Sequence record: PQ567651.1
Reading direction: 5' to 3' (one strand)
Length of the DNA: 64,000 bases
From: Escherichia phage cardinal
Shown: piece after piece, positions 1 to 50,918 of the stretch
Layout of the letters: the number at the start of each line of letters is the position of its first letter
Position numbering within the stretch: the stretch's first letter is position 1
Translations under genes and position numbers: made by a program
The notes under the pieces: generated by a model
Seen by the model: the letters and a program-made list of their open reading frames with translations, nothing else
Database searches by the model: none
Told to the model about the DNA's origin: nothing

Positions 1-276
1 AGCACCTAATGCATTTTTAGACATACGATAAAATTTATTTACTGCTGCACTACGAGACATTTTAAAGAAGCTATCCCACATAGTTACAAGAGCATCAGTA
101 ACTGCTCGACGAATACCTAAAACAATTACACCACGTGCTTCACGATCTGCATAGTGTGCAAAGTTTTTATCATTACGAGGAGTTAAATTAGAGAAAATGA
201 GTTTTGTATTTTGGTTGTACATCTGCTTGTGACCAGGTTTATACCAATCAGTAGCAAAAGGTGCAAAAATATTCAT
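1..276 (-). CDS. NAMPT-family protein (NadV/Namat-like), N-terminal ~92 aa; gene continues past window start
   Basis: Minus-strand translation from ATG at ~276 gives MNIFAPFATDWYKPGHKQMY..., matching the NAMPT N-terminal TD(S/W)YK..H motif; RBS AAGGAGA upstream. Confidence 0.7.
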   Translation of the reverse strand, partial: MNIFAPFATDWYKPGHKQMYNQNTKLIFSNLTPRNDKNFAHYADREARGVIVLGIRRAVTDALVTMWDSFFKMSRSAAVNKFYRMSKNALGA

Positions 277-347: not shown

Positions 348-1241
348 TTAAAAATTCCACACGTATGGAGATACAATTTGTTGTTGCAAATCTGACTGAT
401 TCTTAACAAGAACACCGGAATCTTCTTGGATGTTATCTTCCCACACATTAAGAGAATGAATGCAGTCAAAGTGCTCACTTAACTCTTTAAGACCTTTAGA
501 AAAGATACCGTGTGTAACATATAACTCAATCTTACCTGCGTTACGAGCACGTAGCACTTTAGCCAATTCAATAAAAGTTCTACCGCCGTCACAGATATCA
601 TCTACGATCATCAGGTTACGCTTATTGAAATCCTGTACAGAAATGTCTGTACGAACAATAGCACCTGTTGCAGTATCTCTAACCTTCTCTGCACAGAACA
701 CATCTAAAGACATTTTCTTAGATAATTTAAATATTTTCTTAAGAGCACCACCATCAGGACTAACAAGAGCAAAATTCTCCATACGTAACTTCCACTTTAA
801 AGTTTCATAAGCAATCTCTTCTTGAGGTATTACACAGAGTCTGTCAAACACCGCTGGAGTAACATCACTATGTGGATCAGCAACGATAACACGTGAGAAA
901 TTTAATGAATTAATTATAGAAGCAAATGCTTTAACTCCGAATGCTTCACCAGGCTCACACACTCTGTCTTGTCGTGCATACGGTACATACAACATGAGCA
1001 AATCAACACAATATGGTTTATGATATAGCATATTGTCCAATGCATTCTTAGTCATAACCAAAGTCATCAAGTCTTTAGCAGATCTTACTTCTAAAGAGAG
1101 TAAGATTCTGTCTGTAGCATGATTGAAACCTGATAGATTCGTGTCTAGTTGAACATGTTGTTCTCCACCAGAGAATGTAAAGACTTTAACGTCTACATCA
1201 GTAACATAACAGTCAACACCATGTAGAATACTAACTTTCAT
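348..1241 (-). CDS. ribose-phosphate pyrophosphokinase (PRPP synthetase)-like protein; possibly Adps-like
   Basis: 297 aa; PRTase motif MIVDDICDGGRTF, SPDGG and THGIFS motifs typical of Prs. Confidence 0.75.
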   Translation of the reverse strand: MKVSILHGVDCYVTDVDVKVFTFSGGEQHVQLDTNLSGFNHATDRILLSLEVRSAKDLMTLVMTKNALDNMLYHKPYCVDLLMLYVPYARQDRVCEPGEAFGVKAFASIINSLNFSRVIVADPHSDVTPAVFDRLCVIPQEEIAYETLKWKLRMENFALVSPDGGALKKIFKLSKKMSLDVFCAEKVRDTATGAIVRTDISVQDFNKRNLMIVDDICDGGRTFIELAKVLRARNAGKIELYVTHGIFSKGLKELSEHFDCIHSLNVWEDNIQEDSGVLVKNQSDLQQQIVSPYVWNF

Positions 1242-21110: not shown

Positions 21111-21308
21111 ATGATGCTAGATCAACTGATCAATGCTCCTCGCGTAACAGTAAGTCCAAAAACATTTGCATCACTTTTAGAAGATGCTAGAGAGGTTTAT
21201 AACTTTACTGAAGAAGAGATTCCTGTTCCTGTTGAAAAAGGTTCCAGATGGTTGTTTTATGAAGGTATTATTTTTACTGAAGGGAATAATTGGAAGGAGA
21301 CTAAATGA
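21111..21308 (+). CDS. hypothetical protein
   Basis: ATG after AAGGAGG within track ORF 21018..21308. Confidence 0.45.
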   Translation: MMLDQLINAPRVTVSPKTFASLLEDAREVYNFTEEEIPVPVEKGSRWLFYEGIIFTEGNNWKETK

Positions 21309-22213
21309 AATACTTAGTAACAGGTGGTTTAGGCTTTATTGGAAGTGCGGTAGTTCGTTTCCTGGCTAAAAACACTAAGAATGATATTTACGTTATAGAT
21401 AAATGGAGTTACGCTTCAGACCCTAGAAATTTATCAGAAACACCTAATGTAAAGTTTTGTCGTGTTGACTTGACAAATGCTCAGTTAACTGCTAAGATTG
21501 TGGCAGATGTTAATCCAGATTATATAATGCATCTTGCAGCAGAAAGTCACGTAGATAACTCAATAGCATCACCGAGTGTTTTTATAAATTCAAATATTGT
21601 TGGAACATTTAATCTTCTAGAAGCTGTTCGTTTAATGGGAGATAAATCAAATCTTAAAATGTTTCATCATATTTCAACAGACTATGTTTTTGATGGGCAT
21701 GTTGCTGGCACAGAAGATAGTAAAACAAACCCCTTGAACACCTACGGTTACAGTAAACAATTAGGTGAAACTTTAGTACAAACAGTTTGTCCTACAGCAC
21801 TTATTATCAGAACAGCTTCTGTTTATAGTGAATTTGGACATAACTTTTTGAAAACTATGTTGGAACGCTACAACGGTGGTCAAAAAGAATTTAATGTAGT
21901 ATGTGATCATTTATCATGTCCTACTTATGCACCTGATCTTGCAGAAACAATTTTTAAACTTGTAAAAGATGGTGTAAATAGTAAAATTGTACACTATGCA
22001 GGTGCAGATTATATTTCTTGGTATGATTTTGCACGAAAGATATTTCTTGTTATAGATTTATCTGTTACAGTTAATCCTGTATCTGCTTCAACCTATAATT
22101 CCAAAGCAGTCAGACCAGCAACATCTTATTTAAGAACAGATCCTACTTTAAATCCGCGAAGTGTTGATAGCGGTATTGTAAGAGCTTTAACTATACTTTT
22201 AAACAAGGAGTGA
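21305..22213 (+). CDS. NAD(P)-dependent epimerase/reductase, RmlD (dTDP-4-dehydrorhamnose reductase)-like
   Basis: Rossmann VTGGLGFIGS and STDYVFDG motif characteristic of RmlD-type reductases. Confidence 0.5.
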   Translation: MKYLVTGGLGFIGSAVVRFLAKNTKNDIYVIDKWSYASDPRNLSETPNVKFCRVDLTNAQLTAKIVADVNPDYIMHLAAESHVDNSIASPSVFINSNIVGTFNLLEAVRLMGDKSNLKMFHHISTDYVFDGHVAGTEDSKTNPLNTYGYSKQLGETLVQTVCPTALIIRTASVYSEFGHNFLKTMLERYNGGQKEFNVVCDHLSCPTYAPDLAETIFKLVKDGVNSKIVHYAGADYISWYDFARKIFLVIDLSVTVNPVSASTYNSKAVRPATSYLRTDPTLNPRSVDSGIVRALTILLNKE

Positions 22214-23964: not shown

Positions 23965-24456
23965 ATGACGCTAATTGAGATTGATCGCAATGGTATTGAT
24001 GAATGCTATCAAGCTGGCTTAGTTAAGCCGAATGAGTTTAGACAGATTTATATTGACAAGATTGAAAAAGAAATATCTCTTCGTTTAGAGAACATGACAA
24101 CTTTGCAAAAAGTTCAGATGTTTTTTAGTTGGTTGAAAGGAGAGGATTGGCTAACTAAATATTACCAGGAATTATCTGATAGTCAAGAAGGCTTGTTTGA
24201 GTGTATAATAAATGTAGCTGGGTCTAATTCAGAGTTACTCCTGATTGATGAAGAAGATTCTAAACTTCTTTTTCTTAGCAGTATTTTTCACAAGAAATCT
24301 ATGTTAGTAAGAAATTGCAGTGATTTACTAAATCATCCACTAACAAGAACTAATAAAATTCTTGTGGATAAAGAAACACTAAGAGCTATTGATTACCTCC
24401 GTAAATATGTAAGCGGTGGTAAAGCAGTCCTTAAAACACTACAGGAGGAAGTATAA
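23965..24456 (+). CDS. hypothetical protein
   Basis: track ORF. Confidence 0.5.
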   Translation: MTLIEIDRNGIDECYQAGLVKPNEFRQIYIDKIEKEISLRLENMTTLQKVQMFFSWLKGEDWLTKYYQELSDSQEGLFECIINVAGSNSELLLIDEEDSKLLFLSSIFHKKSMLVRNCSDLLNHPLTRTNKILVDKETLRAIDYLRKYVSGGKAVLKTLQEEV

Positions 24457-25109
24457 TGACAACAATTATTGCAACACGTAACAAAATTTTGTCTGACGGT
24501 AAGGTAACAGTAGGTAGTCGTGTAGACACTTTAAACTTCAAGAAAGTGCGTAAAATTGGGGACTACCTTGTTGGTGGTGCAGGACGTCTGTCTTCTATCC
24601 TGACTTTCTTTTCTTGGTTTGAACAAAACTTACAATGCCAGGCAGCACAAGAGACAATCCCAGGTTTGGTGATCCAGTCAGATCCCGATAAAGAAGATGA
24701 AGAGTTTGTGGCATTGGTTGTTCATCCAGATGGTAAAATTTATATGCACGAGGGTAATAATCCAACGCGAGCATATCCTTTAACTGAAGATTATTATGCT
24801 GTTGGTAGTGGGGCAGATTTTGCTTTAGCAGCTTTAGATGCAGGGGCAACTCCAGAAGAAGCGATGGAAGTTGCAAAACTGCGAGATGCTTTTTCCGGCG
24901 GTGAAACTTTTATCGAAGAGATCGAAGAACAACTGGAGTTAACAGCGGAAGATATTCTGAACTTCAGCAAGGAGCAACTAATTAGTATGCTGTTGACTGG
25001 TGATCCTGATAGCGATGAAGCTGAAAGTATTTTAGCAGAAATGAAAGAATCACAAGAAAAAGTATTGACAGTCTCTGAAAAACTTGATAAAGTGTCCTCT
25101 GATAATTAA
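24456..25109 (+). CDS. HslV-like Ntn-hydrolase peptidase with acidic C-terminal extension
   Basis: MTTIIATR (Thr right after Met) and YAVGSGADFALAA resemble HslV TTIV.. and AIGSGG motifs. Confidence 0.5.
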   Translation: MTTIIATRNKILSDGKVTVGSRVDTLNFKKVRKIGDYLVGGAGRLSSILTFFSWFEQNLQCQAAQETIPGLVIQSDPDKEDEEFVALVVHPDGKIYMHEGNNPTRAYPLTEDYYAVGSGADFALAALDAGATPEEAMEVAKLRDAFSGGETFIEEIEEQLELTAEDILNFSKEQLISMLLTGDPDSDEAESILAEMKESQEKVLTVSEKLDKVSSDN

Positions 25110-25149: not shown

Positions 25150-25578
25150 ATGTTACCAGTACCTGTAACCTTTGTAGAAAAAGCCTACTACTCTTTAGAA
25201 CAAAACTGTAAAAGAGCTAAAAATTTTATTGAAAGTTTAGCAGAACAGCGTTACACTGTATCTAAAAAGGGATGGTTCAGAACTTCACAATATTCAGTCA
25301 ACCCTTTCGGAGAAGTTCGTGTGTTGTACGGCAACACAGAAAATATCTTAGAAAGAATGTTAGAACTAGATAGGATCTCCTCCTGTGATTATCAACTGTT
25401 GAAATTTTACGATTTGTCAGAAAACTTTAAAAACTTTCTTGACGATTTATGTAAACGAAAAACAGAAGAAGATACAATACCAGTATCTATGGAAGAATTA
25501 ACGTTCTTAAGAGATATTATGGTTTTTGAAGAAGACCCTGAAATCACAAAAGAGGAGATTTTAAGTAGTGGCAAATAA
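25150..25578 (+). CDS. hypothetical protein
   Basis: track ORF, RBS AGGAGGAG. Confidence 0.5.
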   Translation: MLPVPVTFVEKAYYSLEQNCKRAKNFIESLAEQRYTVSKKGWFRTSQYSVNPFGEVRVLYGNTENILERMLELDRISSCDYQLLKFYDLSENFKNFLDDLCKRKTEEDTIPVSMEELTFLRDIMVFEEDPEITKEEILSSGK

Positions 25579-26077
25579 GTATGATCGTCCACCAACTGAT
25601 TACTATCCTACTCCACAAAAATGTATAAATGCATTATTTAGTGTAATAGATTTTAATAACCTTAAAGAAGAAGGTTTTATTTTTGCAGAACCGTGTAAAG
25701 GCGCTGCTGCTGCAATTTATCAACATTTTCCAGAAGGATCAGAATATTGTGAGTTAGAAGAAGGGAAAGATTATTTTAACCACGAATGGCATACTAAGCC
25801 GGATATTATAATCACAAATCCCCCATTCAAACTTGCACTTGAGTTCTTGCAAAAGAGCTTAAAAGAAGCAGACGTTTGCATATACTTGTTGCGTCTTGGG
25901 TTCCTAGAGTCTATTAAACGAAGGGAATTCCATAAACAGAATCCACCAACAAATTTGATTGTTCTTTCTGAACGACCATCTTTTGTTGCAGGTGGTACTG
26001 ATAAGACAGCATATGCTTGGTACGTCTACGACCCAAAAAACAGGCTGGGTTTAACTCAACCTTTCTATTTTGTTTAA
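25568..26077 (+). CDS. small DNA N6-adenine methyltransferase-like protein (NPPF motif)
   Basis: EPCKGAAA (SAM-binding-like) and IITNPPF (motif IV). Confidence 0.45.
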   Translation: MANKYDRPPTDYYPTPQKCINALFSVIDFNNLKEEGFIFAEPCKGAAAAIYQHFPEGSEYCELEEGKDYFNHEWHTKPDIIITNPPFKLALEFLQKSLKEADVCIYLLRLGFLESIKRREFHKQNPPTNLIVLSERPSFVAGGTDKTAYAWYVYDPKNRLGLTQPFYFV

Positions 26078-26582: not shown

Positions 26583-27245
26583 ATGAAGTTTGTACTATAT
26601 CATCGACTTTCTAAGAAGAAACAACAAGGCAACCAGTATGGTATAGAATCACAGGAAGCAGATATTCAACGCTTCCTGGATTCACAAGAAAATTATACTA
26701 TTGTAGGTAGCTTTGCAGAGTTTTATTCGGGTAAAGGCGATTGGAAGCAACGTAGAGAGCTTGTAAAAGCTGTTAATCTTTGCAAAGAAACAGGTGCTAC
26801 ACTTGTTGTTGCTAAGGTTGACCGTCTTGGACGTAACACAGCTTCTGTTGCAACCTTGTTAGAGATGATCAATGTACGAATAGCAACTATGCCCTCCGCT
26901 GAAAATATGATAATAAATATTTTAGCAGTTCTGGCAGAAGAAGAGGCTCGTGCAATATCTGATCGTGTTAAGAAGAGCCTTAAGGTAGCAAAAGCGAAGG
27001 GAACGCTTCTTGGTGCAGCAAACCCTAAATACAAAAGAACAGATTATAAGAAAACGGAAGAAGCAAAACGCTCAAGAGAGTTTGCGCTTTCTTTAAAAGA
27101 TTCTTTAGTTGCATACAGAGCTTGTAAAACGCCATATATGACGATTGCAAAGCATCTGAATGAATCAGGAAAGAGAACTATTCGTGGGAGTTTGTTCGAT
27201 GCCAAAGCGGTACAACGTCTTTGTGCAAAATTGAATATTAAATAA
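26583..27245 (+). CDS. serine recombinase (resolvase/invertase family)
   Basis: YHRLS (catalytic Ser context), VAKVDRLGRN, EEEARAISDRVKKSL motifs. Confidence 0.75.
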   Translation: MKFVLYHRLSKKKQQGNQYGIESQEADIQRFLDSQENYTIVGSFAEFYSGKGDWKQRRELVKAVNLCKETGATLVVAKVDRLGRNTASVATLLEMINVRIATMPSAENMIINILAVLAEEEARAISDRVKKSLKVAKAKGTLLGAANPKYKRTDYKKTEEAKRSREFALSLKDSLVAYRACKTPYMTIAKHLNESGKRTIRGSLFDAKAVQRLCAKLNIK

Positions 27246-28379: not shown

Positions 28380-29121
28380 TGCTAGTATATCAAGAAATTA
28401 GTGTAAAAGATGATCAAGACCTGTTTATTATTGGTGATTTACATGGTTGCTTTGATTGTACCAGAAAGGTGTTAATACTTTAGGTATCCGAGATCAAGAT
28501 GTTGTTGTATCTTTAGGAGATCTTACAGATCGCGGCAAGCAGAATTTTCGTTGTGTTGTTGAATTCACCAGAAAGCTAAATCGTTATGGTATTCGTGGAA
28601 ACCATGAAGATATGATGATTAAAGGGTTGCTAGAAGGTGATAGACGATATTACGAATGTTGGTTTCAGAACGGAGGCCATACAGTTCTAGACGAGTGTGG
28701 AGAAGAGGGTGCAACTGCTCTTGCTTCGATGCTAGAAGATTTACCTGTTGTACTTGTTGTCAATTATCGTAATATGAAACTAGGCTTTATTCACGGTGGG
28801 TATCCTTCAGTTTTGGAACATTTGCCAATAACAGAAGTTTTGCCATTTTGTTTGAATATGAATAAAGAGCAAGTTTCTCGATTCACAGAATCTTTAATGT
28901 GGGATCGTGATATGATAGATTGCGCACTTGAAGGGATTCTTCTTCCTAGAGTTTCAGGAGTAGATTATGTATTTCACGGGCATTCTTATGTTCCTAAACC
29001 TGTGATTAGCAGTAATAGGGTATATATGGACACAGGATCTTGCTTCAATGGTAATTTAACCTTTGCATATTTTGATGATTCAAATACGTTACAATTTTAT
29101 TCTACTTTAGAGGAGGACTAA
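28379..29121 (+). pseudogene. lambda-type Ser/Thr protein phosphatase (PPP family) interrupted by apparent 1-nt frameshift near 28465..28483
   Basis: GDLHGC in frame of ATG 28379, then GDLTDRG, GNHE, HGG, GH in the track frame 28456..29121. Confidence 0.6.
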
Positions 29122-29441
29122 TGTATAAAATCACAATTAAAGAAACAGTAGGAGAACTTACGAAAGAAACTACTATTGAGACGGAAGATGTTGAGTTAGT
29201 CAAAGAGCTTTTATTTCCAAAACCAGAAATAAAAGATAATGATGAACAGTTGGATGAAGATAATGAGACAGCAAGGGATAAATGGAAGAAACAACTAGCG
29301 GAGATTTGGAAAAAGCCTGAAGTAACTCCTCCATTTGATCCTCGTAGACCTTATAATCCTTGGGAAATTGGAAGCCCTTGGTTTACGTACCCTATTACTC
29401 CAATTGTTAATCCAATTGTTACTCCCAATATTACTTGTTAA
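29121..29441 (+). CDS. hypothetical protein
   Basis: track ORF. Confidence 0.5.
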   Translation: MYKITIKETVGELTKETTIETEDVELVKELLFPKPEIKDNDEQLDEDNETARDKWKKQLAEIWKKPEVTPPFDPRRPYNPWEIGSPWFTYPITPIVNPIVTPNITC

Positions 29442-29451
29442 GGAGAAAACC

Positions 29452-30030
29452 ATGAGCGATTTATTCTACACAGGTGTTGGTAGCAGAGATATTACAGACG
29501 AAGAATGGGATACTATGGTATCTGTTGCAAAATGGCTATCTACATGGTTCATTTTGCGATCTGGTAAAGCAGAAGGTGCAGATTCCGCATTTGAATGCGG
29601 GGTATATGATAGTGGGAACAATACAAAGAAAGAAATATACATCCCTTGGCTCTCGTTTAAAGGTAATGAAATAGAGGGAGAGGTTATTGTTCTTGACAGA
29701 CCAGATAGTGTAAACTATGCTCTAACCTTGCAATATGCAAAAGAATTGCATCCAGCTTGGGACAGATTATCTCAAGGTGCTAAAAAATTACATCAAAGAA
29801 ATATCCACCAAGTTCTTGGAAGAGACCTTGAGAATCCAAAACCATCTTGTTTTCTTTTAGCTTGTGCAAATACAGATAAAAATGGAGATCCTTTAGGTGG
29901 TACAAGAACAGCTTGGATGTTGGCTAAAAAGTTTAATGTCCCTTGTTTTAATATTCGAGGTAAAAGTAAAAAACAAATTTTCGAATTTATTAAGCCTATT
30001 TTAGAGGAGAATGGTCTTGTCCAGAAATAA
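29452..30030 (+). CDS. SLOG/DprA-like Rossmann-fold protein
   Basis: ATG after AAGGAGA; YTGVGSRDIT and SGKAEGADSAFECG resemble DprA/YpsA-type motifs. Confidence 0.4.
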   Translation: MSDLFYTGVGSRDITDEEWDTMVSVAKWLSTWFILRSGKAEGADSAFECGVYDSGNNTKKEIYIPWLSFKGNEIEGEVIVLDRPDSVNYALTLQYAKELHPAWDRLSQGAKKLHQRNIHQVLGRDLENPKPSCFLLACANTDKNGDPLGGTRTAWMLAKKFNVPCFNIRGKSKKQIFEFIKPILEENGLVQK

Positions 30031-31284: not shown

Positions 31285-32274
31285 ATGAAAGTTTTAAGTC
31301 TTTTTGATGGTATGTCAGGAGGAATGCTTGCGCTAAAAAGTGCAGGTATTGAAGTAGATACATATTATGCTTCAGAATTAGACAAATTCGCCATAGCTGA
31401 AAGCCAAGCAAATTTTCCAGATATTATTCAGTTAGGTGATGTTACAAAATGGAGAGAATGGGATATCCCGTGGGGAGAAATTGATCTTTTGTTAGGTGGT
31501 AGTCCGTGTCAAGGCTTCTCTTCTTCTGGTAAGGGTTTGAACTTTCAAGATCCGCGATCTAAGCTATTCTTCGAATATGTTGAGATTCTTGAACATATTA
31601 AAAAGTTTAACCCTAATGTTAAGTTCATGCTTGAAAACGTTAAGATGAAAGTGGAGTGGGAAAACGTGATCACAAGTTACTTAGGTGTTGATCCCGTATT
31701 CATTAACTCCGCAGATTTCACGGCACAGAATAGACAACGTTTATACTGGTGCAACTGGGAAATAAAGCCTTGGGATATTACCAATGCAGTGCTGCAAGAT
31801 ATCATTGAAGATGATAGTATTGTAGACAGAGATAAGGCTTATTGCATAGATGCAAATTATGCCAAAGGTGGTAATATAGAACAGTATTTTGAAAAGAGTC
31901 GCAGACAACTGGTTTTTTATCCGGCAGCAATATATGGGCGTAGAATTAATGAAAATGGCAAACGTAGTACATCTAAAACTGATCGTTTGGTACATTGTTT
32001 GGAAGTTCAGGACAGTGAAAAAACTCGTTGCCTCACGACTGTGCCTAAAGACGTACTATTAGCTTACATTCCACCTGGAAGATATCTAGATGCCTTTGAA
32101 AAATTAAGTGAAGGCGTACATTATAGAAAGTTAACGGTTAAAGAGTGTTGCCGCTTGCAAGGTGTGCCAGATGACTACTTTAAAGTGAGTAGTAACACAC
32201 AAGCATATAAGATGTTAGGTAACGGTTGGACTATACCTGTCATTGCACATATTCTTAAATGTATGGAGGAATAG
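31285..32274 (+). CDS. DNA (cytosine-5)-methyltransferase
   Basis: SLFDGMSGG (motif I), GGSPCQGFS (PCQ motif IV), ENV, CCRLQGVPDDY, GNGWTIPVI. Confidence 0.8.
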   Translation: MKVLSLFDGMSGGMLALKSAGIEVDTYYASELDKFAIAESQANFPDIIQLGDVTKWREWDIPWGEIDLLLGGSPCQGFSSSGKGLNFQDPRSKLFFEYVEILEHIKKFNPNVKFMLENVKMKVEWENVITSYLGVDPVFINSADFTAQNRQRLYWCNWEIKPWDITNAVLQDIIEDDSIVDRDKAYCIDANYAKGGNIEQYFEKSRRQLVFYPAAIYGRRINENGKRSTSKTDRLVHCLEVQDSEKTRCLTTVPKDVLLAYIPPGRYLDAFEKLSEGVHYRKLTVKECCRLQGVPDDYFKVSSNTQAYKMLGNGWTIPVIAHILKCMEE

Positions 32275-33062: not shown

Positions 33063-33617
33063 ATGGGTTTTGATGATATGTTATTATATGAGGAGGCTTG
33101 TGTGAAAGAAGCTATGGCTTTACCAGTTTTATCTATTGATATTACAACAGTAGACACTTTTTCAGATTGTGAAACGTGTGGATCGTATTCAAGTATTGTA
33201 CATGTGGTCTGTGGGGATTTAGGCACTTACGAAGATGGAGATTATGCAAGTTGTTTAGGTGATAATCAAGATGGTGAAGTGGCAAATGTTGCAAACTGGA
33301 TTGCTTCTAAGTTAAAAGAAAGAAATCGTCCGTTCCCTAATCTTCTTACACCAGAAGCTATGCTTAAAGCTGAACAAGAGATGTATGATTATGGTTATAA
33401 AGTAGATTATGACTATAATGATCCTAATTATAAAAAATTGAGTGACAAGTATTGGGAACTAGCTAACGCTTATGATAAATACTACTCTACAGAAAACATT
33501 GTTAAATTGTTTTTAGATTTTGGAGTAGAAATTAATTGGGATTTCGAAGAGGAAGAGCGTTACGACGCATCTTCTTGGGATGATGATTACGAAGAGGATA
33601 TTGAATGCGAAGAGTAA
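33063..33617 (+). CDS. hypothetical acidic protein
   Basis: ATG after GGAGG within track ORF 33048..33617. Confidence 0.5.
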   Translation: MGFDDMLLYEEACVKEAMALPVLSIDITTVDTFSDCETCGSYSSIVHVVCGDLGTYEDGDYASCLGDNQDGEVANVANWIASKLKERNRPFPNLLTPEAMLKAEQEMYDYGYKVDYDYNDPNYKKLSDKYWELANAYDKYYSTENIVKLFLDFGVEINWDFEEEERYDASSWDDDYEEDIECEE

Positions 33618-34417
33618 TTTTTGTTAGTGGCGCAGGACTATCTGTGGATAGCGGTATCCCAGCTTTTAGAACAGATACTTCTTCAGGGGAGGCGTTATGG
33701 TCTTCTTATGATCTTTCTGAGGTTTGTGACATTTTCAACTTCCGTGACGGTTATCAGCAAGAACAAGGTGTTCTTGATGCTATGGGTGGTTTAGATGCGG
33801 AAGGATATAACCTCTACCGTAAAACTCACGACTTTTACAATAAACGTCGCGTGGAATTAGAGAAAGTTGACCCGAATCCAGCACATCTTCAGATTGGAGA
33901 ATGGTTCAAAAAATATGGCCCAGAACGAATTATTAACATTACTACTAACGTGGATGACCTCCTTGAACGAGCAGGAGTAGATAGGGAAGAAGTGCTACAT
34001 GTGCACGGTTTTCTTCCTGAAATTACTTTTCAAAGAAAAGCCGGACAACCTACAATTGTAAAAGATGTTGGTTATCAAGCCATAGATGTAGATGACTACC
34101 ATTATGTAAAACCTAATGTAATTTTCTTTGGGGAAGCTGCTCCACTTTACACGGATATGTATTATATTTTTGATACACTGACGGCTCAAGATTTGGTTGT
34201 AGTAGTAGGATGTTCAAACCAAGTTATCAATTTTAATTGGGAATTATTCCCTGCACTTAATATGGGTACAAAAATGATCGTTGTTAACCCAGGAATTAAT
34301 TACGAAGAAACTCTTCTTTACGAAGATAGAGGAGTCTTTGTTTATCGAGAAAAGGCCGCAGATGCTTTTAGCAATCCTGCTTTCATAAAAATGATAGAAG
34401 ATCATTTGACTAAATAA
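33605..34417 (+). CDS. Sir2-family (sirtuin-like) NAD-dependent protein
   Basis: VSGAGLSVDSGIPAFR, TTNVDDL, HG, PNVIFFGE, VVGCS match sirtuin motifs. Confidence 0.7.
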   Translation: MRRVIFVSGAGLSVDSGIPAFRTDTSSGEALWSSYDLSEVCDIFNFRDGYQQEQGVLDAMGGLDAEGYNLYRKTHDFYNKRRVELEKVDPNPAHLQIGEWFKKYGPERIINITTNVDDLLERAGVDREEVLHVHGFLPEITFQRKAGQPTIVKDVGYQAIDVDDYHYVKPNVIFFGEAAPLYTDMYYIFDTLTAQDLVVVVGCSNQVINFNWELFPALNMGTKMIVVNPGINYEETLLYEDRGVFVYREKAADAFSNPAFIKMIEDHLTK

Positions 34418-35534: not shown

Positions 35535-35822
35535 TTATTTGCTTTCACGAGCAAAATAATAATTTTCATATTCATTACGTGTAACGATTTCTGGATGATC
35601 AGGTTCACCGTAACTAAGTTTAATTTCAGGATACACTTTGGTGTTGAATAGACACGTAACACCTCTCATATAATATCCTGTAGGACTTAAAACAACATCA
35701 TCTTCACTTACACTTGAGAATTTTATTTCACCATTAGTATCTTTGACGACAATAAGAGCATGTTCAGGCCAATCAAGATTCTCTTCTTTCAGTTTTTCAT
35801 AAACTTCTTGCACTAGTTCCAT
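35535..35822 (-). CDS. hypothetical protein
   Basis: track ORF. Confidence 0.5.
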   Translation of the reverse strand: MELVQEVYEKLKEENLDWPEHALIVVKDTNGEIKFSSVSEDDVVLSPTGYYMRGVTCLFNTKVYPEIKLSYGEPDHPEIVTRNEYENYYFARESK

Positions 35823-35829
35823 ATTGCCT

Positions 35830-36005
35830 CCTCAGATTACAAATTTTTCTTCTTCTGGTTTCTCGTAGTTGGGAGAATAAACGTGGGATGGATTAAAACC
35901 TTTAAAGCTACCCCGCCCTTTTCGTGGACAATTGAATGTTTTAGCTTTGTGATCACCAAAAGATTTACCACAATGTACACATTTATAATTGGTATCTTTG
36001 AACAT
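35830..36005 (-). CDS. small Cys-rich protein (CxxC...C)
   Basis: 57 aa MFKDTNYKCVHCGKSFGDHK... with RBS GGAGAG; preferred over overlapping track ORF 35837..36034. Confidence 0.35.
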
Positions 36006-36160
36006 TTTACTCTCCTTTGAAAGATAGGCTGCACAGCAGTACAGCCTTTTAAAAATTAGTGTTTAAATTTTTCGATTACTTCGTCAACTTTAGCGATGAT
36101 AACATCTTGGTACTTGTGACCAAAATAACCAACAACAACACCAACAATAAACGTCATCAT

Positions 36161-36760
36161 TTACTTCTCCTTTTTAACTATAATTGCTTCTTCATTCAGG
36201 GTAAACAGCAAGGAAGATGTATCACCAACACACCTTGCACCTGGAATGAGTTCTAAAATCTTAGAGGATATAGCAATAGTATCTTCATCCAGTACATATT
36301 CTCCAGGTAACAATCTTAATGTTATTGGAAAATCTACGGATGCCAAACCAGAGAACATCCCATCATTAAGAAGAACAACTTCTAAACCGTTGCCTTCTTG
36401 TTGTGCATTATGCACTTTTTCAGGTAAGAAGTCAATACATTGATTTAAAATTTCCACATTTAATTCTACGCCAGTCCGAGCTTTATAAACTCTAGCCAAA
36501 TCTATGATCCGAGGATCAATACTGGCGTAAGGAGATTCTAGGTGTTTTGGGTCAATAGGAGCAACGCGCAATTTACCATCGAGAGATATCCACGTTACAA
36601 TCCACATTTCACCAACCCCAGGTTGATCTCGCTCAGTAAGGAATTCTACTAATGCTCCAGGGTTAGGCATTATGTAATCTTGTGTGATCAACATGTTCTT
36701 TACTCGCAAAAGCATTCCTGGCTTTAGTAAGCCCCTCTCACCACTCCAATATTCTTTCAT
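36161..36760 (-). CDS. hypothetical protein
   Basis: track ORF, start moved to ATG with AGGAG RBS. Confidence 0.5.
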   Translation of the reverse strand: MKEYWSGERGLLKPGMLLRVKNMLITQDYIMPNPGALVEFLTERDQPGVGEMWIVTWISLDGKLRVAPIDPKHLESPYASIDPRIIDLARVYKARTGVELNVEILNQCIDFLPEKVHNAQQEGNGLEVVLLNDGMFSGLASVDFPITLRLLPGEYVLDEDTIAISSKILELIPGARCVGDTSSLLFTLNEEAIIVKKEK

Positions 36761-36773
36761 TTTTACTCCTGAT

Positions 36774-37046
36774 TTAATGTCGTAGTTCACTAAACTTACA
36801 AACAAAGTGAACGTTAAGAAAAGTTAGTTTTCGATCTGGTGTAAACTCTGTTACTGTTTTATACACCTGTGCAATACCGAACCTGTTGATAGCAGGTACT
36901 GACAATTGGCTTATACATTTCATAGCTGACAGTTTTGCCTCTTCTTCAGATGCAAAATAAGTAAAGATACCTTCTTCGTCAACTATAATTTCTTGTGTAA
37001 CACAATCTACAAAACAAAAGAAAACATTAGGTAATTTTTCCGACAT
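36774..37046 (-). CDS. hypothetical protein
   Basis: track ORF. Confidence 0.5.
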   Translation of the reverse strand: MSEKLPNVFFCFVDCVTQEIIVDEEGIFTYFASEEEAKLSAMKCISQLSVPAINRFGIAQVYKTVTEFTPDRKLTFLNVHFVCKFSELRH

Positions 37047-37047
37047 A

Positions 37048-37260
37048 TTAGTTGTTCCTGTACTTAGAGAACAAAGTATTGACTAACCAGTCAGCAAACA
37101 GTAATCCAAGTGTACCAATACCGTAACCGATAAGCATAATGTAAGGCACTGCCTTATTTTCATTACCTGTCATTACTTCAGGAAAAATCAAAAACACAAT
37201 ACCGTTACCAACGATAATCCAGAACATAAGAAACACAAACATACGAAGCAACATTGTCAT
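37048..37260 (-). CDS. hypothetical membrane protein
   Basis: two hydrophobic segments. Confidence 0.5.
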   Translation of the reverse strand: MTMLLRMFVFLMFWIIVGNGIVFLIFPEVMTGNENKAVPYIMLIGYGIGTLGLLFADWLVNTLFSKYRNN

Positions 37261-37261
37261 A

Positions 37262-37444
37262 TTATTCTTCCTCCTTCACTTCTTCAACTTTACGAAGCAT
37301 ACGTTTATCAAATGTAGCTTTCTGTAGTTGTTCATTAACATCAAACCACACCACTTCGCAAGTATCGTAGGTAGATACCATTACAGTCATTAACATTTCT
37401 TCACTGGCAAGACGTACAATATCACCTGTTTTAATATTTACCAT
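37262..37444 (-). CDS. hypothetical protein
   Basis: track ORF. Confidence 0.45.
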   Translation of the reverse strand: MVNIKTGDIVRLASEEMLMTVMVSTYDTCEVVWFDVNEQLQKATFDKRMLRKVEEVKEEE

Positions 37445-37848
37445 AACTCCTCCAGAAGTTTACCAAGTTTAGTTTTAAATTCATTATCCCACGCTATACG
37501 AACTATGTCAAGATCACCTTGTGCATTACGTTTTGTATCTAAGTAGTAACCACCATGCTCATAGCGGTGTTTTATATGCTCGATCAGACGTTCTTTACCA
37601 CTCTTAGATAAATAATCATCAAATTCCCCATTGAAAAGGTCTAAGATTGTTTGTCTATTATCTCCTAATTGAGTGATTCTAAAGCTAATCAAACATCCCT
37701 GTAAACCTATATCTGTTTGTTTAAGAGAAAACTCATGACCAAAGCCGCCTGTAACTATAACAAGCGGTTTTCCTGTGATAGAGCTTTTAATAACATCTTG
37801 CTTAGGTTCTGCCAAAGATGTTAGAAACTCTTTTAACCATTTGAACAT
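37438..37848 (-). CDS. hypothetical protein
   Basis: track ORF. Confidence 0.5.
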   Translation of the reverse strand: MFKWLKEFLTSLAEPKQDVIKSSITGKPLVIVTGGFGHEFSLKQTDIGLQGCLISFRITQLGDNRQTILDLFNGEFDDYLSKSGKERLIEHIKHRYEHGGYYLDTKRNAQGDLDIVRIAWDNEFKTKLGKLLEELW

Positions 37849-38008
37849 AAACTCTCCTGTGTGGCGTGGCTTTGCCTAAGCGCCGAAGGCGCGGATCAAA
37901 TATAAGCTGAATTTATTACGCCCAGGTAGCCAGGGCGCATAAATATCAGAAATTTACCATCGAATAACTATTCGAGTAAAATTTTCATCGTAATGAGATG
38001 TTTCTGTA

Positions 38009-38203
38009 TCAATAAAAGTTGAAAAAACCTTCAGCATCCAAGCTAACTTTTGCGAAAGTTGGATAAAGCGTGTATATAGCAACTTCTCTGTCTCCATCTT
38101 TAGCTGCTCTCTCAATATACGCGTAGATATTTTGTAAACTCTCCTTTGCTTTGTTAAGTTCTGCGTTTTCTGCCAGTTCTCTCATTTTATCTGCTACAGT
38201 CAT
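38009..38203 (-). CDS. hypothetical protein
   Basis: track ORF. Confidence 0.45.
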   Translation of the reverse strand: MTVADKMRELAENAELNKAKESLQNIYAYIERAAKDGDREVAIYTLYPTFAKVSLDAEGFFNFY

Positions 38204-49972: not shown

Positions 49973-50143
49973 TTACTCTTCATCGTCGCCGTTATAGTAT
50001 TCAATGCCGTTTTCATCGGTTACAGTAATGTTAACGCCACCGATAGCAACACGATCACGGGCAAACGTCATGGCTTCATTTAAATCTTCAGACCAAAAAA
50101 TATTGTGACCTTTGCGCGATACATAAAACATAGTTGGGATCAT
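49973..50143 (-). CDS. small hypothetical protein
   Basis: 57 aa ORF filling gap between cassettes. Confidence 0.35.
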   Translation of the reverse strand: MIPTMFYVSRKGHNIFWSEDLNEAMTFARDRVAIGGVNITVTDENGIEYYNGDDEE

Positions 50144-50165
50144 GATTTGTTTCTCTTCTGTTGTG

Positions 50166-50226
50166 AGCGGGAAACCATTTCCCGCCCTATGTGATAAACT
50201 TTACTACGTTGTTTGCCTAGTGTCAA
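50166..50226 (-). promoter_or_regulatory. promoter + stem-loop cassette (PeSL-like)
   Basis: plus: gcgggaaaccatttcccgccctatgtgata...tgtcaa. Confidence 0.5.
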
Positions 50227-50227
50227 A

Positions 50228-50512
50228 TTATTTTTTAATGTTTTGCCCTACAAAATTGATCACTTCCTTAAGCTGTTTCTCAGTCATGATCGTGCCTGGT
50301 AATTCTTCTTTGATTTCTTCCGGTAGATAGATATTACCGCGCCAGGTTAATAAACAACCGTTTTGATCTTCGCAGATAGAATAAGAGAAGATCCACTCAT
50401 TATCATTCTCAAGCTCCCAAAAGCACAAAAAATCTTCTTTCCCTAAATTTTCAACGGTTAAACATAATCCGCGACGTGCTGCATAGTTGGAAAGTGCTTT
50501 TGTGATCTTCAT
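50228..50512 (-). CDS. hypothetical protein
   Basis: track ORF. Confidence 0.5.
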   Translation of the reverse strand: MKITKALSNYAARRGLCLTVENLGKEDFLCFWELENDNEWIFSYSICEDQNGCLLTWRGNIYLPEEIKEELPGTIMTEKQLKEVINFVGQNIKK

Positions 50513-50531
50513 AGCTTATCTCTTCTGTTAA

Positions 50532-50594
50532 GGCGGGGAAACCATTTCCCCGCTCTATGAGATACAATATACTATCTGTTAGGTGTGCTGTCAA
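50532..50594 (-). promoter_or_regulatory. promoter + stem-loop cassette (PeSL-like)
   Basis: plus: ggcggggaaaccatttccccgc...tgtcaa. Confidence 0.5.
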
Positions 50595-50918
50595 TCAATA
50601 ATCTTTAAGATTTTCTACATTTACAAAAGTGCGTTTATTTTCTAAGTTTTCGCCGTACCATTGCCCCATGTTGATTTCTGCGGTGCGCAACCAGGACATG
50701 CCGCGCTCTATCTTTTTACTTGCAATCTCGATCCGGCTTTTGCATAGTGCTTTCGCTTGCAATGTAAAAACACTATTGCCCTGTAATGCTTCCAGGTCAT
50801 CATGTGCAAGGCGATACTCTTTAAAGCCTGATTCTATCATTTCAATAGCATCAAGTAAACGCGCGCGATGATAGAAAAAATCAGAGTTATCCAAATAAAC
50901 ACCGATCACAGATTTCAT
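50595..50918 (-). CDS. hypothetical protein
   Basis: track ORF, internal ATG start. Confidence 0.45.
   Translation of the reverse strand: MKSVIGVYLDNSDFFYHRARLLDAIEMIESGFKEYRLAHDDLEALQGNSVFTLQAKALCKSRIEIASKKIERGMSWLRTAEINMGQWYGENLENKRTFVNVENLKDY

What the first reader, a model, noticed from the sequence alone, without database searches (positions are those of the whole stretch)
29452..30030. SLOG/DprA-like Rossmann protein near the methyltransferase and Sir2 genes
GVGSR and SGKAEGADSAF resemble the nucleotide-binding motifs of DprA/YpsA-type (SLOG) proteins, a fold recurrent in nucleotide-signal processing and conflict systems. It sits about 3.5 kb from the Sir2 gene.
Basis: inference. Interest (0 to 1): 0.4.

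Follow-up and report, generated by a model that had tools for sequence, protein, structure and literature searches.

The report
Phage DprA-like SLOG nucleotide-binding protein
This is an already annotated phage gene (identical to phi92 gp047) for a small DprA-like/SLOG Rossmann protein from a very widespread phage family whose function is untested; it most likely handles a nucleotide or ADP-ribose-derived molecule during infection, and it is not a dedicated partner of the nearby Sir2 gene.

Summary
Window 29452-30030(+) is a real 192-aa gene with a strong RBS, and both quoted motifs are present. The window is a phi92-like E. coli myophage. The protein is 100% identical to Phi92_gp047, which GenBank/RefSeq already annotate as "DprA-like" (PHROG 768, E=9e-60).

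An AlphaFold model (pLDDT 96.9) matches only SLOG-superfamily structures at the top: DprA, MCP, LOG, ShosA, YpsA and ThsA-SLOG. The SLOG/DprA-like fold call is therefore correct.

It is not a canonical DprA. Pfam PF02481 is matched only weakly, only in the N-terminal ~45 residues, and below the family threshold. It is not a LOG enzyme either, because the Glu of PGGxGTxxE is absent.

The Sir2 link is weak: Sir2 lies within 6 kb in only 1 of 31 lineages. However, close family members are repeatedly fused to NADAR and DUF4326. In other phages they sit beside Macro, NARP1 and NadR/PnuC genes.

My best reading (about 0.45) is a nucleotide/ADP-ribose-derivative-binding or -hydrolysing accessory of the phage NAD+/ADPr counter-defence network. 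The main rival (about 0.25) is a DprA-type ssDNA binder.

The fold and family are already known. The function is still experimentally open. Interest is low to moderate.

The parts
29452..30030 (+). CDS of the 192-aa SLOG/DprA-like protein (= Phi92_gp047, PHROG 768)
29440..29445 (+). Ribosome-binding site AAGGAG, 6 nt upstream of the ATG; it overlaps the stop codon of the upstream gene (29121-29441)
   Evidence: Read directly from the sequence. An RBS is annotated at the same place in phi92.
29473..29487 (+). G-V-G-S-R loop after strand 1 (residues 8-12); matches DprA signature motif 1, G-[STA]-R
   Evidence: G10, S11 and R12 are invariant in 50 homologs. The motif is defined in PMC3950713. It aligns to the VGSR of DprA structures and of E. 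coli Smf.
29557..29592 (+). R-S-G-K-A-E-G-A-D-S-A-F (residues 36-47): end of strand 2 and start of helix 2; the SGxAxGxD motif shared with DprA, and LRxGxAxGxD shared with YAcAr SLOGs
   Evidence: R36, G38, A40, G42 and D44 are invariant. Aligned to DprA SGLAxGID and to Seurat gp80 LRHGDADGVD.
29644..29658 (+). P-W-L-S-F just after strand 3 (residues 65-69); a family-specific, near-invariant aromatic motif at the position where TIR/DrHyd/SLOG domains carry active-site residues
   Evidence: P65, W66 and F69 are >=90% conserved. The 'PW' is shared with the YAcAr protein Seurat gp80. The active-site location is as described in PMC9503650.
29788..29802 (+). L-H-Q-R-N (residues 113-117) on the helix preceding strand 4; fits DprA signature motif 2, [FLY]-x-x-R-[ND], and corresponds to the R-K of LOG and the R89-N90 of ORF83
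   Evidence: H114, R116 and N117 are invariant and L113 is >=90% conserved. Motif definition. Helix 108-122 is seen in the model. The positional equivalence is inferred from topology and from the LOG/ORF83 alignment reported in 10.1101/2025.06.06.658234. It has not been shown by a residue-level superposition of this model.
29896..29913 (+). G-G-T-R-T-A loop/helix start after strand 4 (residues 149-154); counterpart of DprA SGSLxTA and LOG PGGxGTxxE, but with Ala where LOG has its Glu
   Evidence: G149, G150 and T151 are invariant; T153 and A154 are >=90% conserved. The LOG motif is quoted in PMC3950713.

Best explanation
The gene encodes a stand-alone, single-domain SLOG-superfamily Rossmannoid protein.

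Shown: the fold, and a dense set of invariant polar residues. These are the G-S-R loop, RSGxAxGxD, PW after strand 3, HPAW, the LHxRN helix and the GGT loop. They lie on the C-terminal edge of the sheet, where DprA holds a flipped-out base plus phosphate, LOG holds AMP, and ThsA holds 3'cADPR.

Inferred: the protein binds one nucleotide-like moiety in that pocket. It acts as a soluble accessory expressed from the long rightward early/middle block. It binds or hydrolyses an adenine-nucleotide or ADP-ribose-derived substrate, either a soluble ADPr derivative or an ADP-ribosylated base on nucleic acid. In this reading it is part of the phage's NAD+/ADP-ribose counter-defence and salvage network. 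It works alongside, but is not physically coupled to, the NARP1-like, Macro, DUF4326-like and Sir2 genes scattered in the same genome. It is not a Sir2-specific partner.
For: - Enzyme- or ligand-pocket-like conservation: 17 invariant columns at <=45% pairwise identity, including S11, R12, R36, D44, H114, R116, N117, Q120, S132 and T151, plus near-invariant H100, W66 and W103. The family pI is near neutral (median 7.0), against 8.6-8.8 for the Smf Rossmann domain.
- Fusions: 14 multidomain proteins were checked, 13 from the 150 best family representatives plus P0072. Four carry NADAR (P0241, P0242, P0259, P0321) and four carry DUF4326 (P0332, P0350, P0359, P0072). P0241 and P0242 are ~1,480-aa polyvalent proteins with several SLOG types plus NADAR.
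- Neighbourhood: 11 of 31 SLOG lineages have Macro, NADAR, DUF4326, Adps, Namat or Sir2 within +/-6 kb. The Pakpunavirus order is Adps-Namat-Macro-x-x-SLOG (PMC12846349). In Mydovirus the gene adjoins a NadR-like NMNAT, with PnuC ~3 kb downstream; this is the NARP3 gene pair of PMC13464706.
- Experiment on partner domains: phage NADARs and a T4 macrodomain counter DarT DNA ADP-ribosylation (PMC11257639; 10.1101/2025.11.20.689424).
- Published inference: Iyer et al. 2022 reached the same conclusion for viral SLOGs (PMC9503650).
- Related family: deleting a related small viral SLOG, PhiDruSM1 ORF83 (YAcAr type), sensitises that phage to Avs type III (10.1101/2024.04.14.589459).
Against: - No biochemical or genetic data exist for this family, and the substrate is unknown.
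- In the phi92-like window the gene has no NAD/ADPr neighbour closer than Sir2 (3.6 kb). It sits in a syntenic block of nucleotide-metabolism and auxiliary genes: PhoH in 12/31 lineages, ClpP-like in 9/31, plus RNR and dCMP deaminase. Part of the 'association' could therefore be inherited synteny among related myophages.
- The sequence motifs are most like DprA, an ssDNA binder.
- The catalytic Glu of LOG is missing.
- A lysate screen of 72 phages found 2'/3'cADPR cleavage only by an unrelated RyR-domain enzyme (PMC13232231). I could not establish whether SLOG-bearing phages were in that panel.
- ORF83 belongs to a different SLOG family (PF10686), so its phenotype transfers only loosely.
Confidence: 0.45

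Rival explanations
1. DprA-type ssDNA binder. The domain grips single-stranded phage DNA by inserting a base into the conserved pocket (R12, L113, R116, N117). It either protects replication/recombination intermediates or hands them to a RecA-like recombinase, host RecA or a phage protein, as bacterial DprA and the ShosA antitoxin do.
For: - 40 of 50 family members weakly match Pfam DprA (PF02481). None match LOG, YpsA or YAcAr.
- Foldseek's nine best PDB hits are H. pylori DprA.
- Both motifs proposed as signatures of the ssDNA-binding DprA domain, G-[STA]-R and [FLY]-x-x-R-[ND], are present and invariant.
- ShosA binds ssDNA with the equivalent arginines.
- Iyer et al. 2021 suggested that jumbo-phage DprA/Smf copies act as extra ssDNA-binding proteins.
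- In Nankokuvirus the gene lies between a DNA ligase and a helicase.
- The other PhiDruSM1 genes whose loss sensitises to Avs3 include a DNA ligase.
Against: - The Pfam match covers only ~45 N-terminal residues and is below the gathering score (best 26.8 vs 29.6 bits).
- hhalign against an Smf profile gives 36% probability, N-terminal part only.
- There is no SAM or C-terminal winged-helix domain.
- The family is near neutral in charge.
- It carries many invariant His/Ser/Thr/Asp residues that a backbone binder would not need.
- No recombinase is annotated in 1-100 kb of the closest RefSeq genome.
- Recurrent fusions are to ADP-ribose hydrolase-type domains, not to recombination proteins.
Confidence: 0.25
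2. LOG-like nucleotide N-glycosidase (phosphoribohydrolase). The protein cleaves the base from AMP or another (deoxy)nucleoside monophosphate and so reshapes nucleotide pools during infection.
For: - The R of LOG 'MHxRK' and the T of 'PGGxGT' have counterparts in R116 and T151.
- This activity was proposed from AlphaFold3 AMP docking for the related ORF83 (10.1101/2025.06.06.658234).
- Frequent neighbours are nucleotide-metabolism genes: RNR, dCMP deaminase, PhoH.
Against: - The defining PGGxGTxxE Glu is replaced by a conserved Ala (A154).
- No family member hits Pfam PF03641.
- The proposal for ORF83 is itself untested, and ORF83 is in another family.
Confidence: 0.15
3. Antitoxin mimic. The protein substitutes for the DprA-like antitoxin ShosA and neutralises the ShosT toxin of the ShosTA defence system.
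Against: - ShosA needs its SAM domain, dimerisation and RecA contact, none of which is evident here.
- ShosA is not a closer match than other SLOGs.
- The family is far more widespread than would be expected for a single-system mimic.
Confidence: 0.03
4. One reading: the SLOG protein forms a functional module with the nearby Sir2 and methyltransferase genes, a ThsA-like SLOG sensor plus Sir2 effector split into separate genes.
For: Sir2 (33605-34417) is 3.6 kb downstream on the same strand. ThsA combines Sir2 and SLOG domains.
Against: - Sir2 is a neighbour in 1 of 31 lineages only.
- Six other genes lie between the two.
- In PVP-SE1 the homologs are ~39 genes apart.
- The methyltransferase cluster near the gene is present in only 3 loci.
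Confidence: 0.03

Closest known systems
DprA/Smf Rossmann-fold domain (Pfam PF02481; H. pylori 4LJK/4LJR, S. pneumoniae 3UQZ, R. palustris 3MAJ)
   Same: - Shared G-S-R loop, SGxAxGxD, an [FL]xxRN helix before strand 4, and a G-x-x-x-T-A loop.
- It is the only Pfam family that most members touch.
   Different: - Detectable sequence similarity is limited to ~45 N-terminal residues and is below Pfam's threshold.
- No SAM or DML1/winged-helix domains.
- Extra family-specific invariant motifs (LRSG, PW..F, IHPAW, H114, Q120) and two insertions (residues ~65-85 and ~139-148).
- Near-neutral pI.
- Fused to NADAR/DUF4326 rather than to DNA-uptake or recombination modules.
YAcAr/YspA small viral SLOGs (Pfam PF10686), e.g. 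PhiDruSM1 ORF83 / Seurat gp80, reported as an anti-Avs type III factor
   Same: - Stand-alone small phage SLOG.
- Shares LR[SH]GxAxGxD, the PW after strand 3, the R-N helix and the GG.GT-type loop.
- Relatives of both are fused to DUF4326.
- Both types occur together in the polyvalent proteins P0241/P0242.
   Different: - A different family. PF10686 does not hit gp047 or its homologs, and the A1 profile hits Seurat gp80 only marginally.
- ORF83 is 130 aa, lacks the insertions, and has PGGAGTMD with an acidic residue that gp047 lacks.
LOG / PpnN phosphoribohydrolases (Pfam PF03641)
   Different: The PGGxGTxxE catalytic Glu is absent. There is no Pfam hit and no GGGxxGxMG motif.
ThsA SLOG domain of type I Thoeris (7UXS)
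   Same: SLOG fold with a pocket that binds an ADP-ribose-derived ligand. Thematic link to NAD+/ADPr conflicts.
ShosA antitoxin (8ZVA)
   Different: ShosA has a SAM domain, dimerises, and binds RecA and ssDNA. None of these has been shown or is evident for gp047.

Membership tests
SLOG superfamily (SMF/DprA-LOG Rossmannoid domains) | Three-layer alpha/beta Rossmannoid fold with a parallel 5-stranded core sheet, matching solved SLOG members | tested here: met
   [not shown]
SLOG superfamily (SMF/DprA-LOG Rossmannoid domains) | Conserved polar/Gly-rich loop after strand 1, and conserved residues in the loop/helix after strand 3 and the G-rich loop after strand 4 (ligand site) | tested here: met
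   Invariant G10-S11-R12. Near-invariant P65, W66 and F69. Invariant G149-G150-T151. Feature description from PMC9503650.
PHROG 768 ('DprA-like DNA recombination-mediator protein') | Significant full-length match to the PHROG profile | tested here: met
   E=8.6e-60, residues 2-186 on profile positions 2-184 of 191.
DprA/Smf (Pfam PF02481 DNA_processg_A) | Score at or above Pfam's gathering threshold (29.6 bits) over the ~205-residue domain | tested here: not met
   The query has no hit even at E<=10. 40 of 50 homologs hit, but with at most 26.8 bits and only profile positions ~45-97 of 212. hhalign against an Smf profile gives 36% probability over 46 columns.
DprA/Smf (Pfam PF02481 DNA_processg_A) | Signature motif 1, G-[STA]-R, after the first core strand (HpDprA G50-R52) | tested here: met
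   G10-S11-R12 are invariant. They align to the VGSR of 3MAJ, 3UQZ and Smf. Motif from PMC3950713.
DprA/Smf (Pfam PF02481 DNA_processg_A) | Signature motif 2, [FLY]-x-x-R-[ND], on the helix before the fourth core strand (HpDprA F140-N144) | tested here: inconclusive
   L113-H114-Q115-R116-N117 fits the pattern, is conserved, and lies on helix 108-122 just before strand 134-138. However, no confident residue-level alignment to DprA was obtained. A forced hhalign placed the Smf motif on a different helix with near-zero confidence.
DprA/Smf (Pfam PF02481 DNA_processg_A) | Accessory SAM (N-terminal) and/or DML1/winged-helix (C-terminal) domains | tested here: not met
   The protein is 192 aa and entirely taken up by the Rossmann domain. 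By contrast, E. coli Smf homologs carry PF17782 and PF25317.
DprA/Smf (Pfam PF02481 DNA_processg_A) | ssDNA binding, dimerisation and RecA loading | not testable with these tools
   Needs EMSA/MST, SEC-MALS and RecA filament assays. The only indirect data are a near-neutral pI and no annotated recombinase in 1-100 kb of phage muut.
LOG / lysine-decarboxylase-like phosphoribohydrolases (Pfam PF03641) | P-G-G-x-G-T-x-x-E motif with the catalytic Glu | tested here: not met
   The sequence is L-G-G-T-R-T-A, with conserved Ala154 where the Glu would fall. No family member hits PF03641.
YAcAr/YspA SLOG (Pfam PF10686, formerly DUF2493) | Match to the PF10686 profile | tested here: not met
   No hit for the query or for 50 homologs at E<=1. 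A true member, Seurat gp80, scores 65 bits. Only LRxGxAxGxD...PW aligns between the two families.
YpsA (Pfam PF06908, DUF1273) | Match to the family profile | tested here: not met
   [not shown]
Thoeris ThsA-type SLOG sensor | SLOG coupled (fused or strictly linked) to a Sir2 or other effector, and encoded with a TIR signal generator | tested here: not met
   The protein is stand-alone. Sir2 is a separate gene 3.6 kb away and is a neighbour in 1 of 31 lineages. There is no PADLOC hit.

The most novel reading that the evidence does not exclude
PHROG-768 SLOG proteins are a new class of enzymatic phage counter-defence factor. They use a DprA-like base-binding pocket to recognise and remove, or to sequester, an ADP-ribose adduct. 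The adduct could be an ADP-ribosylated base on phage ssDNA, complementing NADAR (guanine) and Macro (thymine) enzymes, or a TIR/Sir2-derived ADPr signal. This would explain why the domain is fused to NADAR and DUF4326 and why it is carried by more than 1,200 sequenced phages.
Probability: 0.25. Interest if true: 0.65.

Novelty: already known. Interest (0 to 1): 0.25.

Why it matters
The gene is ordinary for this phage group. However, its family is one of the more widespread phage protein families with no tested function: 1,246 of about 50,700 phage records, and about 6,000 clusters at 50% identity. Databases label it a 'recombination mediator' on the strength of ~45 residues of similarity. If it instead processes ADP-ribose-derived molecules, thousands of annotations would be wrong. 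It would also add a new enzymatic arm to the phage response to NAD+/ADP-ribose-based immunity (Thoeris, DarTG, Sir2 systems, possibly Avs3). For this window specifically, the result is that the finding is correct about the fold, already annotated, and not a Sir2-linked system.

Tried and rejected
1. Pfam, NCBIfam and PADLOC on the query gave no hits. Sequence search of the PDB gave only marginal DprA N-terminal matches, E 0.1-0.7.

2. hhalign of the family profile against E. coli Smf, alone or as a 15-sequence profile, aligned only the N-terminal ~46 columns. Forced global or low-MAC alignments were unreliable, so motif-2 equivalence could not be confirmed. The Smf homolog search returned only close enterobacterial sequences, which limited profile diversity.

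3. The afdb50 fold library was unavailable.

4. The Iyer 2022 supplement is not held, so I could not check whether gp047 is in their SLOG list.

5. I looked for the PhiDruSM1 ORF83 family in Queuovirinae. There was no A1-profile hit in the first 50 kb of phage 9g or of Seurat. Seurat gp80 turned out to be the ORF83 ortholog but is a YAcAr SLOG, not PHROG 768. The anti-Avs3 phenotype therefore cannot be transferred directly.

6. The RyDEP preprint does not list its phage panel in the held text, so its negative screen cannot be applied to this family.

7. Two further fusion partners (phrog_2072, phrog_9995) have no known function.

8. A literature search on DUF2493/YAcAr/YspA returned almost only papers on Caiman yacare.

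9. The Sir2/methyltransferase module idea was rejected because linkage is not conserved.

Full report
**What is there.** The window is a phi92-like E. coli myophage (Justusliebigvirus). 12 kb around the finding is 97-99% identical to phages muut, BME3, phi92 and others, and the whole window maps collinearly onto muut 13.5-80.6 kb. The finding's coordinates are exactly one CDS, ATG 29452 to TAA 30030, 192 aa. AAGGAG lies 6 nt upstream and overlaps the stop codon of the preceding gene. The mechanical ORF list offers a longer TTG start at 29335, but all homologs begin at M..FYTGVGSR, so the ATG is the real start. The protein is 100% identical to Phi92_gp047. The GenBank/RefSeq records for phi92 already describe it as 'potential DNA processing protein like fold' and 'DprA-like DNA recombination-mediator protein'.

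**Observation.** GVGSR (residues 8-12) and SGKAEGADSAF (residues 37-47) are present. They belong to columns that are invariant in 50 homologs at 39-77% identity to the query: G10 S11 R12 R36 G38 A40 G42 D44, plus H114 R116 N117 Q120 G123 S132 G149 G150 T151. The family is large:
- PHROG 768 at E=8.6e-60.
- 1,246 phage records, from Pseudomonas, Klebsiella, Escherichia, Aeromonas, Vibrio and Acinetobacter phages among others.
- 5,991 representatives at 50% clustering with E<=1e-3.

**Fold.** An AlphaFold2 model built on the 50-sequence alignment has mean pLDDT 96.9 and pTM 0.92.
- Foldseek ranks H. pylori DprA chains first (E=1.5e-5 to 1.8e-4).

**Which SLOG family?** Pfam, NCBIfam and PADLOC do not recognise the query.
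- Scanning all 50 homologs, 40 touch PF02481 (DprA) and 6 touch LDcluster4. None touch LOG, YpsA or YAcAr.
- The DprA matches are at most 26.8 bits, below the 29.6-bit threshold, and cover only the first ~45 residues.
- Profile-profile comparison with an E. coli Smf profile behaves the same way: 36% probability over 46 columns.
- Wang et al. (PMC3950713) proposed two signatures for the ssDNA-binding DprA domain, G-[STA]-R and [FLY]-x-x-R-[ND]. They contrasted these with the LOG signature PGGxGTxxE.
- The phage family has invariant G-S-R. It also has L113-H114-x-R116-N117 on the helix before strand 4, which fits the second pattern. I could not confirm that positional equivalence with a residue-level alignment.
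- The LOG Glu is replaced by a conserved Ala.
- The family also shares LR[SH]GxAxGxD and a 'PW' after strand 3 with YAcAr-type small viral SLOGs.

I conclude that it is a distinct SLOG family. It is nearest in sequence to DprA, but it is not a member of Pfam DprA, LOG, YpsA or YAcAr.

**Context in this phage.** The gene lies in a long run of same-strand genes (muut 15-52 kb). That block encodes RNA ligase, DNA ligase, exonucleases, thymidylate synthase, RNR, PhoH, an HslV-like peptidase, a small NPPF methyltransferase, a serine recombinase, a NinI-type phosphatase, the SLOG gene, four unknown genes, a C5-methyltransferase and Sir2. Its immediate neighbours belong to PHROGs of unknown function.

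**Context elsewhere.** I fetched 80 IMG/VR loci, called ORFs, clustered the neighbours and annotated cluster representatives. The loci fall into 31 lineages at 60% SLOG identity. Neighbour counts by lineage were:

| Neighbour within +/-6 kb | Lineages (of 31) |
|---|---|
| PhoH | 12 |
| ClpP-like protease | 9 |
| HslV-like | 6 |
| NinI phosphatase | 5 |
| dCMP deaminase | 5 |
| NPPF methyltransferase | 5 |
| Macro | 5 |
| Adps | 4 |
| RNR | 3 |
| Namat | 3 |
| NADAR | 2 |
| DUF4326 | 2 |
| Sir2 | 1 (the phi92-like clade) |

- Eleven of the 31 lineages have at least one NAD+/ADP-ribose-related neighbour.
- In Pakpunavirus the order is Adps-Namat-Macro-x-x-SLOG (PMC12846349).
- In a Mydovirus the gene abuts a NadR-like NMNAT, with PnuC ~3 kb downstream. 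This is the pair now called NARP3 (PMC13464706).
- In a T4-like Marfavirus it follows an RNA ligase.
- In Nankokuvirus it lies between a ligase/endolysin and a helicase.

The Sir2 argument is therefore lineage-specific. A looser link to NAD+/ADPr genes recurs, but many of these myophages share deep synteny, so the counts are not independent events.

**Fusions.** I checked 14 multidomain proteins: 13 among the 150 best-scoring family representatives, plus P0072 from the first homolog search.
- Four carry NADAR: P0259, P0321, and the ~1,480-aa polyvalent proteins P0241 and P0242. The two polyvalent proteins also contain YAcAr and LDcluster4 SLOG domains and extra PHROG-768 copies.
- Four carry DUF4326: P0332, P0350, P0359 and P0072.
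- Four carry two unknown domains, phrog_2072 and phrog_9995.

NADAR domains in T4, T5-like and Vequintavirinae phages have been shown experimentally to remove ADP-ribose from DarT1-modified DNA (PMC11257639). A T4 macrodomain counters DarTG2 (10.1101/2025.11.20.689424). Iyer et al. reported the same fusion pattern for viral SLOG domains and predicted that they process ADP-ribose derivatives (PMC9503650). The same group had earlier suggested that jumbo-phage DprA/Smf copies might be extra ssDNA binders (PMC7824862).

**Only experimental hint.** In phage PhiDruSM1, deleting ORF83, annotated 'Smf/DprA', lowered plating on an Avs type III host (10.1101/2024.04.14.589459). A later preprint modelled ORF83 with AMP and proposed a LOG-like phosphoribohydrolase (10.1101/2025.06.06.658234). 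I identified Seurat gp80 as the ORF83 ortholog. It has R89, N90, T112 and D114 at exactly the reported positions. It is a PF10686 YAcAr SLOG, related to gp047 but not in the same family. The phenotype is therefore suggestive only.

**Weighing.**
- Shown: gene, fold, conservation pattern, distribution, fusions, neighbourhoods.
- Inferred: that the conserved pocket binds a nucleotide moiety, and that the biological role lies in the NAD+/ADP-ribose conflict network.

I favour a ligand-binding or enzymatic role over a plain ssDNA binder for four reasons:
- There are many invariant polar and His residues.
- The pI is near neutral (median 7.0, against 8.6-8.8 for the Smf Rossmann domain).
- The domain is fused to ADP-ribose hydrolase-type domains and occurs in polyvalent proteins.
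- The recombination context is not consistent.

Against this reading:
- The clearest sequence signatures are DprA's.
- No substrate is known.
- Synteny inflates the neighbourhood signal.
- A 72-phage lysate screen found cADPR cleavage only by an unrelated enzyme (PMC13232231).

The two ideas can be reconciled if the pocket recognises an ADP-ribosylated base on ssDNA, but that is speculation.

Confidences: nucleotide/ADPr-derivative handler 0.45; DprA-type ssDNA binder 0.25; LOG-like NMP glycosidase 0.15; ShosA mimic 0.03; Sir2/methyltransferase module 0.03; something else for the remainder.

**Novelty and verdict.** The fold assignment, the family (PHROG 768) and even the conflict-system interpretation are already in databases and in the literature. 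The protein is identical to an annotated one. The finding is correct about the fold, overstated about Sir2, and not new. What remains open is the function of a very common phage protein, which is a reasonable target for experiment. Interest 0.25.

Noticed in passing
window 1-276(-) and 348-1241(-): A NARP1-like gene pair sits at the window's left edge. It comprises an Adps-like ribose-phosphate pyrophosphokinase (297 aa) and the 5' part of a Namat-like nicotinamide phosphoribosyltransferase. The assignment rests on 98% DNA identity to annotated muut genes. It shows that this phage carries NAD+-reconstitution genes about 28 kb from the SLOG gene.
   Followed up: partly
window 21305-22213(+), junction at 21668-21681: Compared with phage muut, the window lacks about 2.3 kb (muut 35774-38114) of the dTDP-rhamnose cluster. 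The remaining 302-aa ORF looks like an in-frame chimera of the N-terminus of the 4,6-dehydratase and the C-terminus of the reductase, joined across a 14-nt overlap. This may be a deletion by recombination between paralogous SDR genes.
   Followed up: no
window 33605-34417(+): A phage-encoded Sir2-family protein (PF02146, E=1.3e-22 on the 99%-identical locus L006). Among SLOG-bearing loci it is conserved only in the phi92-like clade. Its role in a virulent phage is unknown.
   Followed up: partly
window 25568-26077(+) and 31285-32274(+): Two orphan DNA methyltransferases. One is a small 169-aa protein with an NPPF motif and no Pfam hit, found near the SLOG gene in 5 of 31 lineages. The other is a 329-aa C5-cytosine methyltransferase.
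   Followed up: partly
window 24456-25109(+), 26583-27245(+), 28456-29121(+): An HslV/proteasome-like peptidase, a serine recombinase/invertase and a NinI-type Ser/Thr phosphatase lie in the same gene block. The HslV-like and NinI genes recur near the SLOG gene in several lineages.
   Followed up: partly
window 33550-33607: The window lacks the ~0.74-kb gene found in muut (gp166, 50043-50783) immediately upstream of Sir2.
   Followed up: no
proteins P0241 and P0242 (metagenomic, 1475 and 1488 aa): Giant polyvalent proteins that combine 2-3 PHROG-768 SLOG copies, a YAcAr SLOG, an LDcluster4 SLOG and a C-terminal NADAR domain. Several paralogous SLOGs in one chain suggests a division of labour over different substrates.
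   Followed up: partly
L091 4156-4548 (Escherichia phage Seurat gp80, KM236243 53155-53547): A 130-aa YAcAr (PF10686) SLOG with R89, N90, T112 and D114 at exactly the positions published for the anti-Avs3 protein ORF83 of PhiDruSM1. ORF83 is therefore a YAcAr SLOG rather than a DprA.
   Followed up: yes
proteins P0315/P0343 (C-terminal) and P0334/P0342 (N-terminal): Two uncharacterised domains are recurrently fused to the SLOG domain: phrog_2072 (motif VFVFGSNxxGxHGAGAA...YAIPT) and phrog_9995 (motif YEVSxKGDKRFS). Neither has a Pfam match.
   Followed up: partly
L088 35483-35641 and 47832-48275 (phage muut 85.5 kb and 97.8 kb, outside the window): phi92-like genomes also encode a DUF4326-like ORF and a Macro-domain protein annotated as 'phosphatase'. 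These are dispersed far from the SLOG gene.
   Followed up: no
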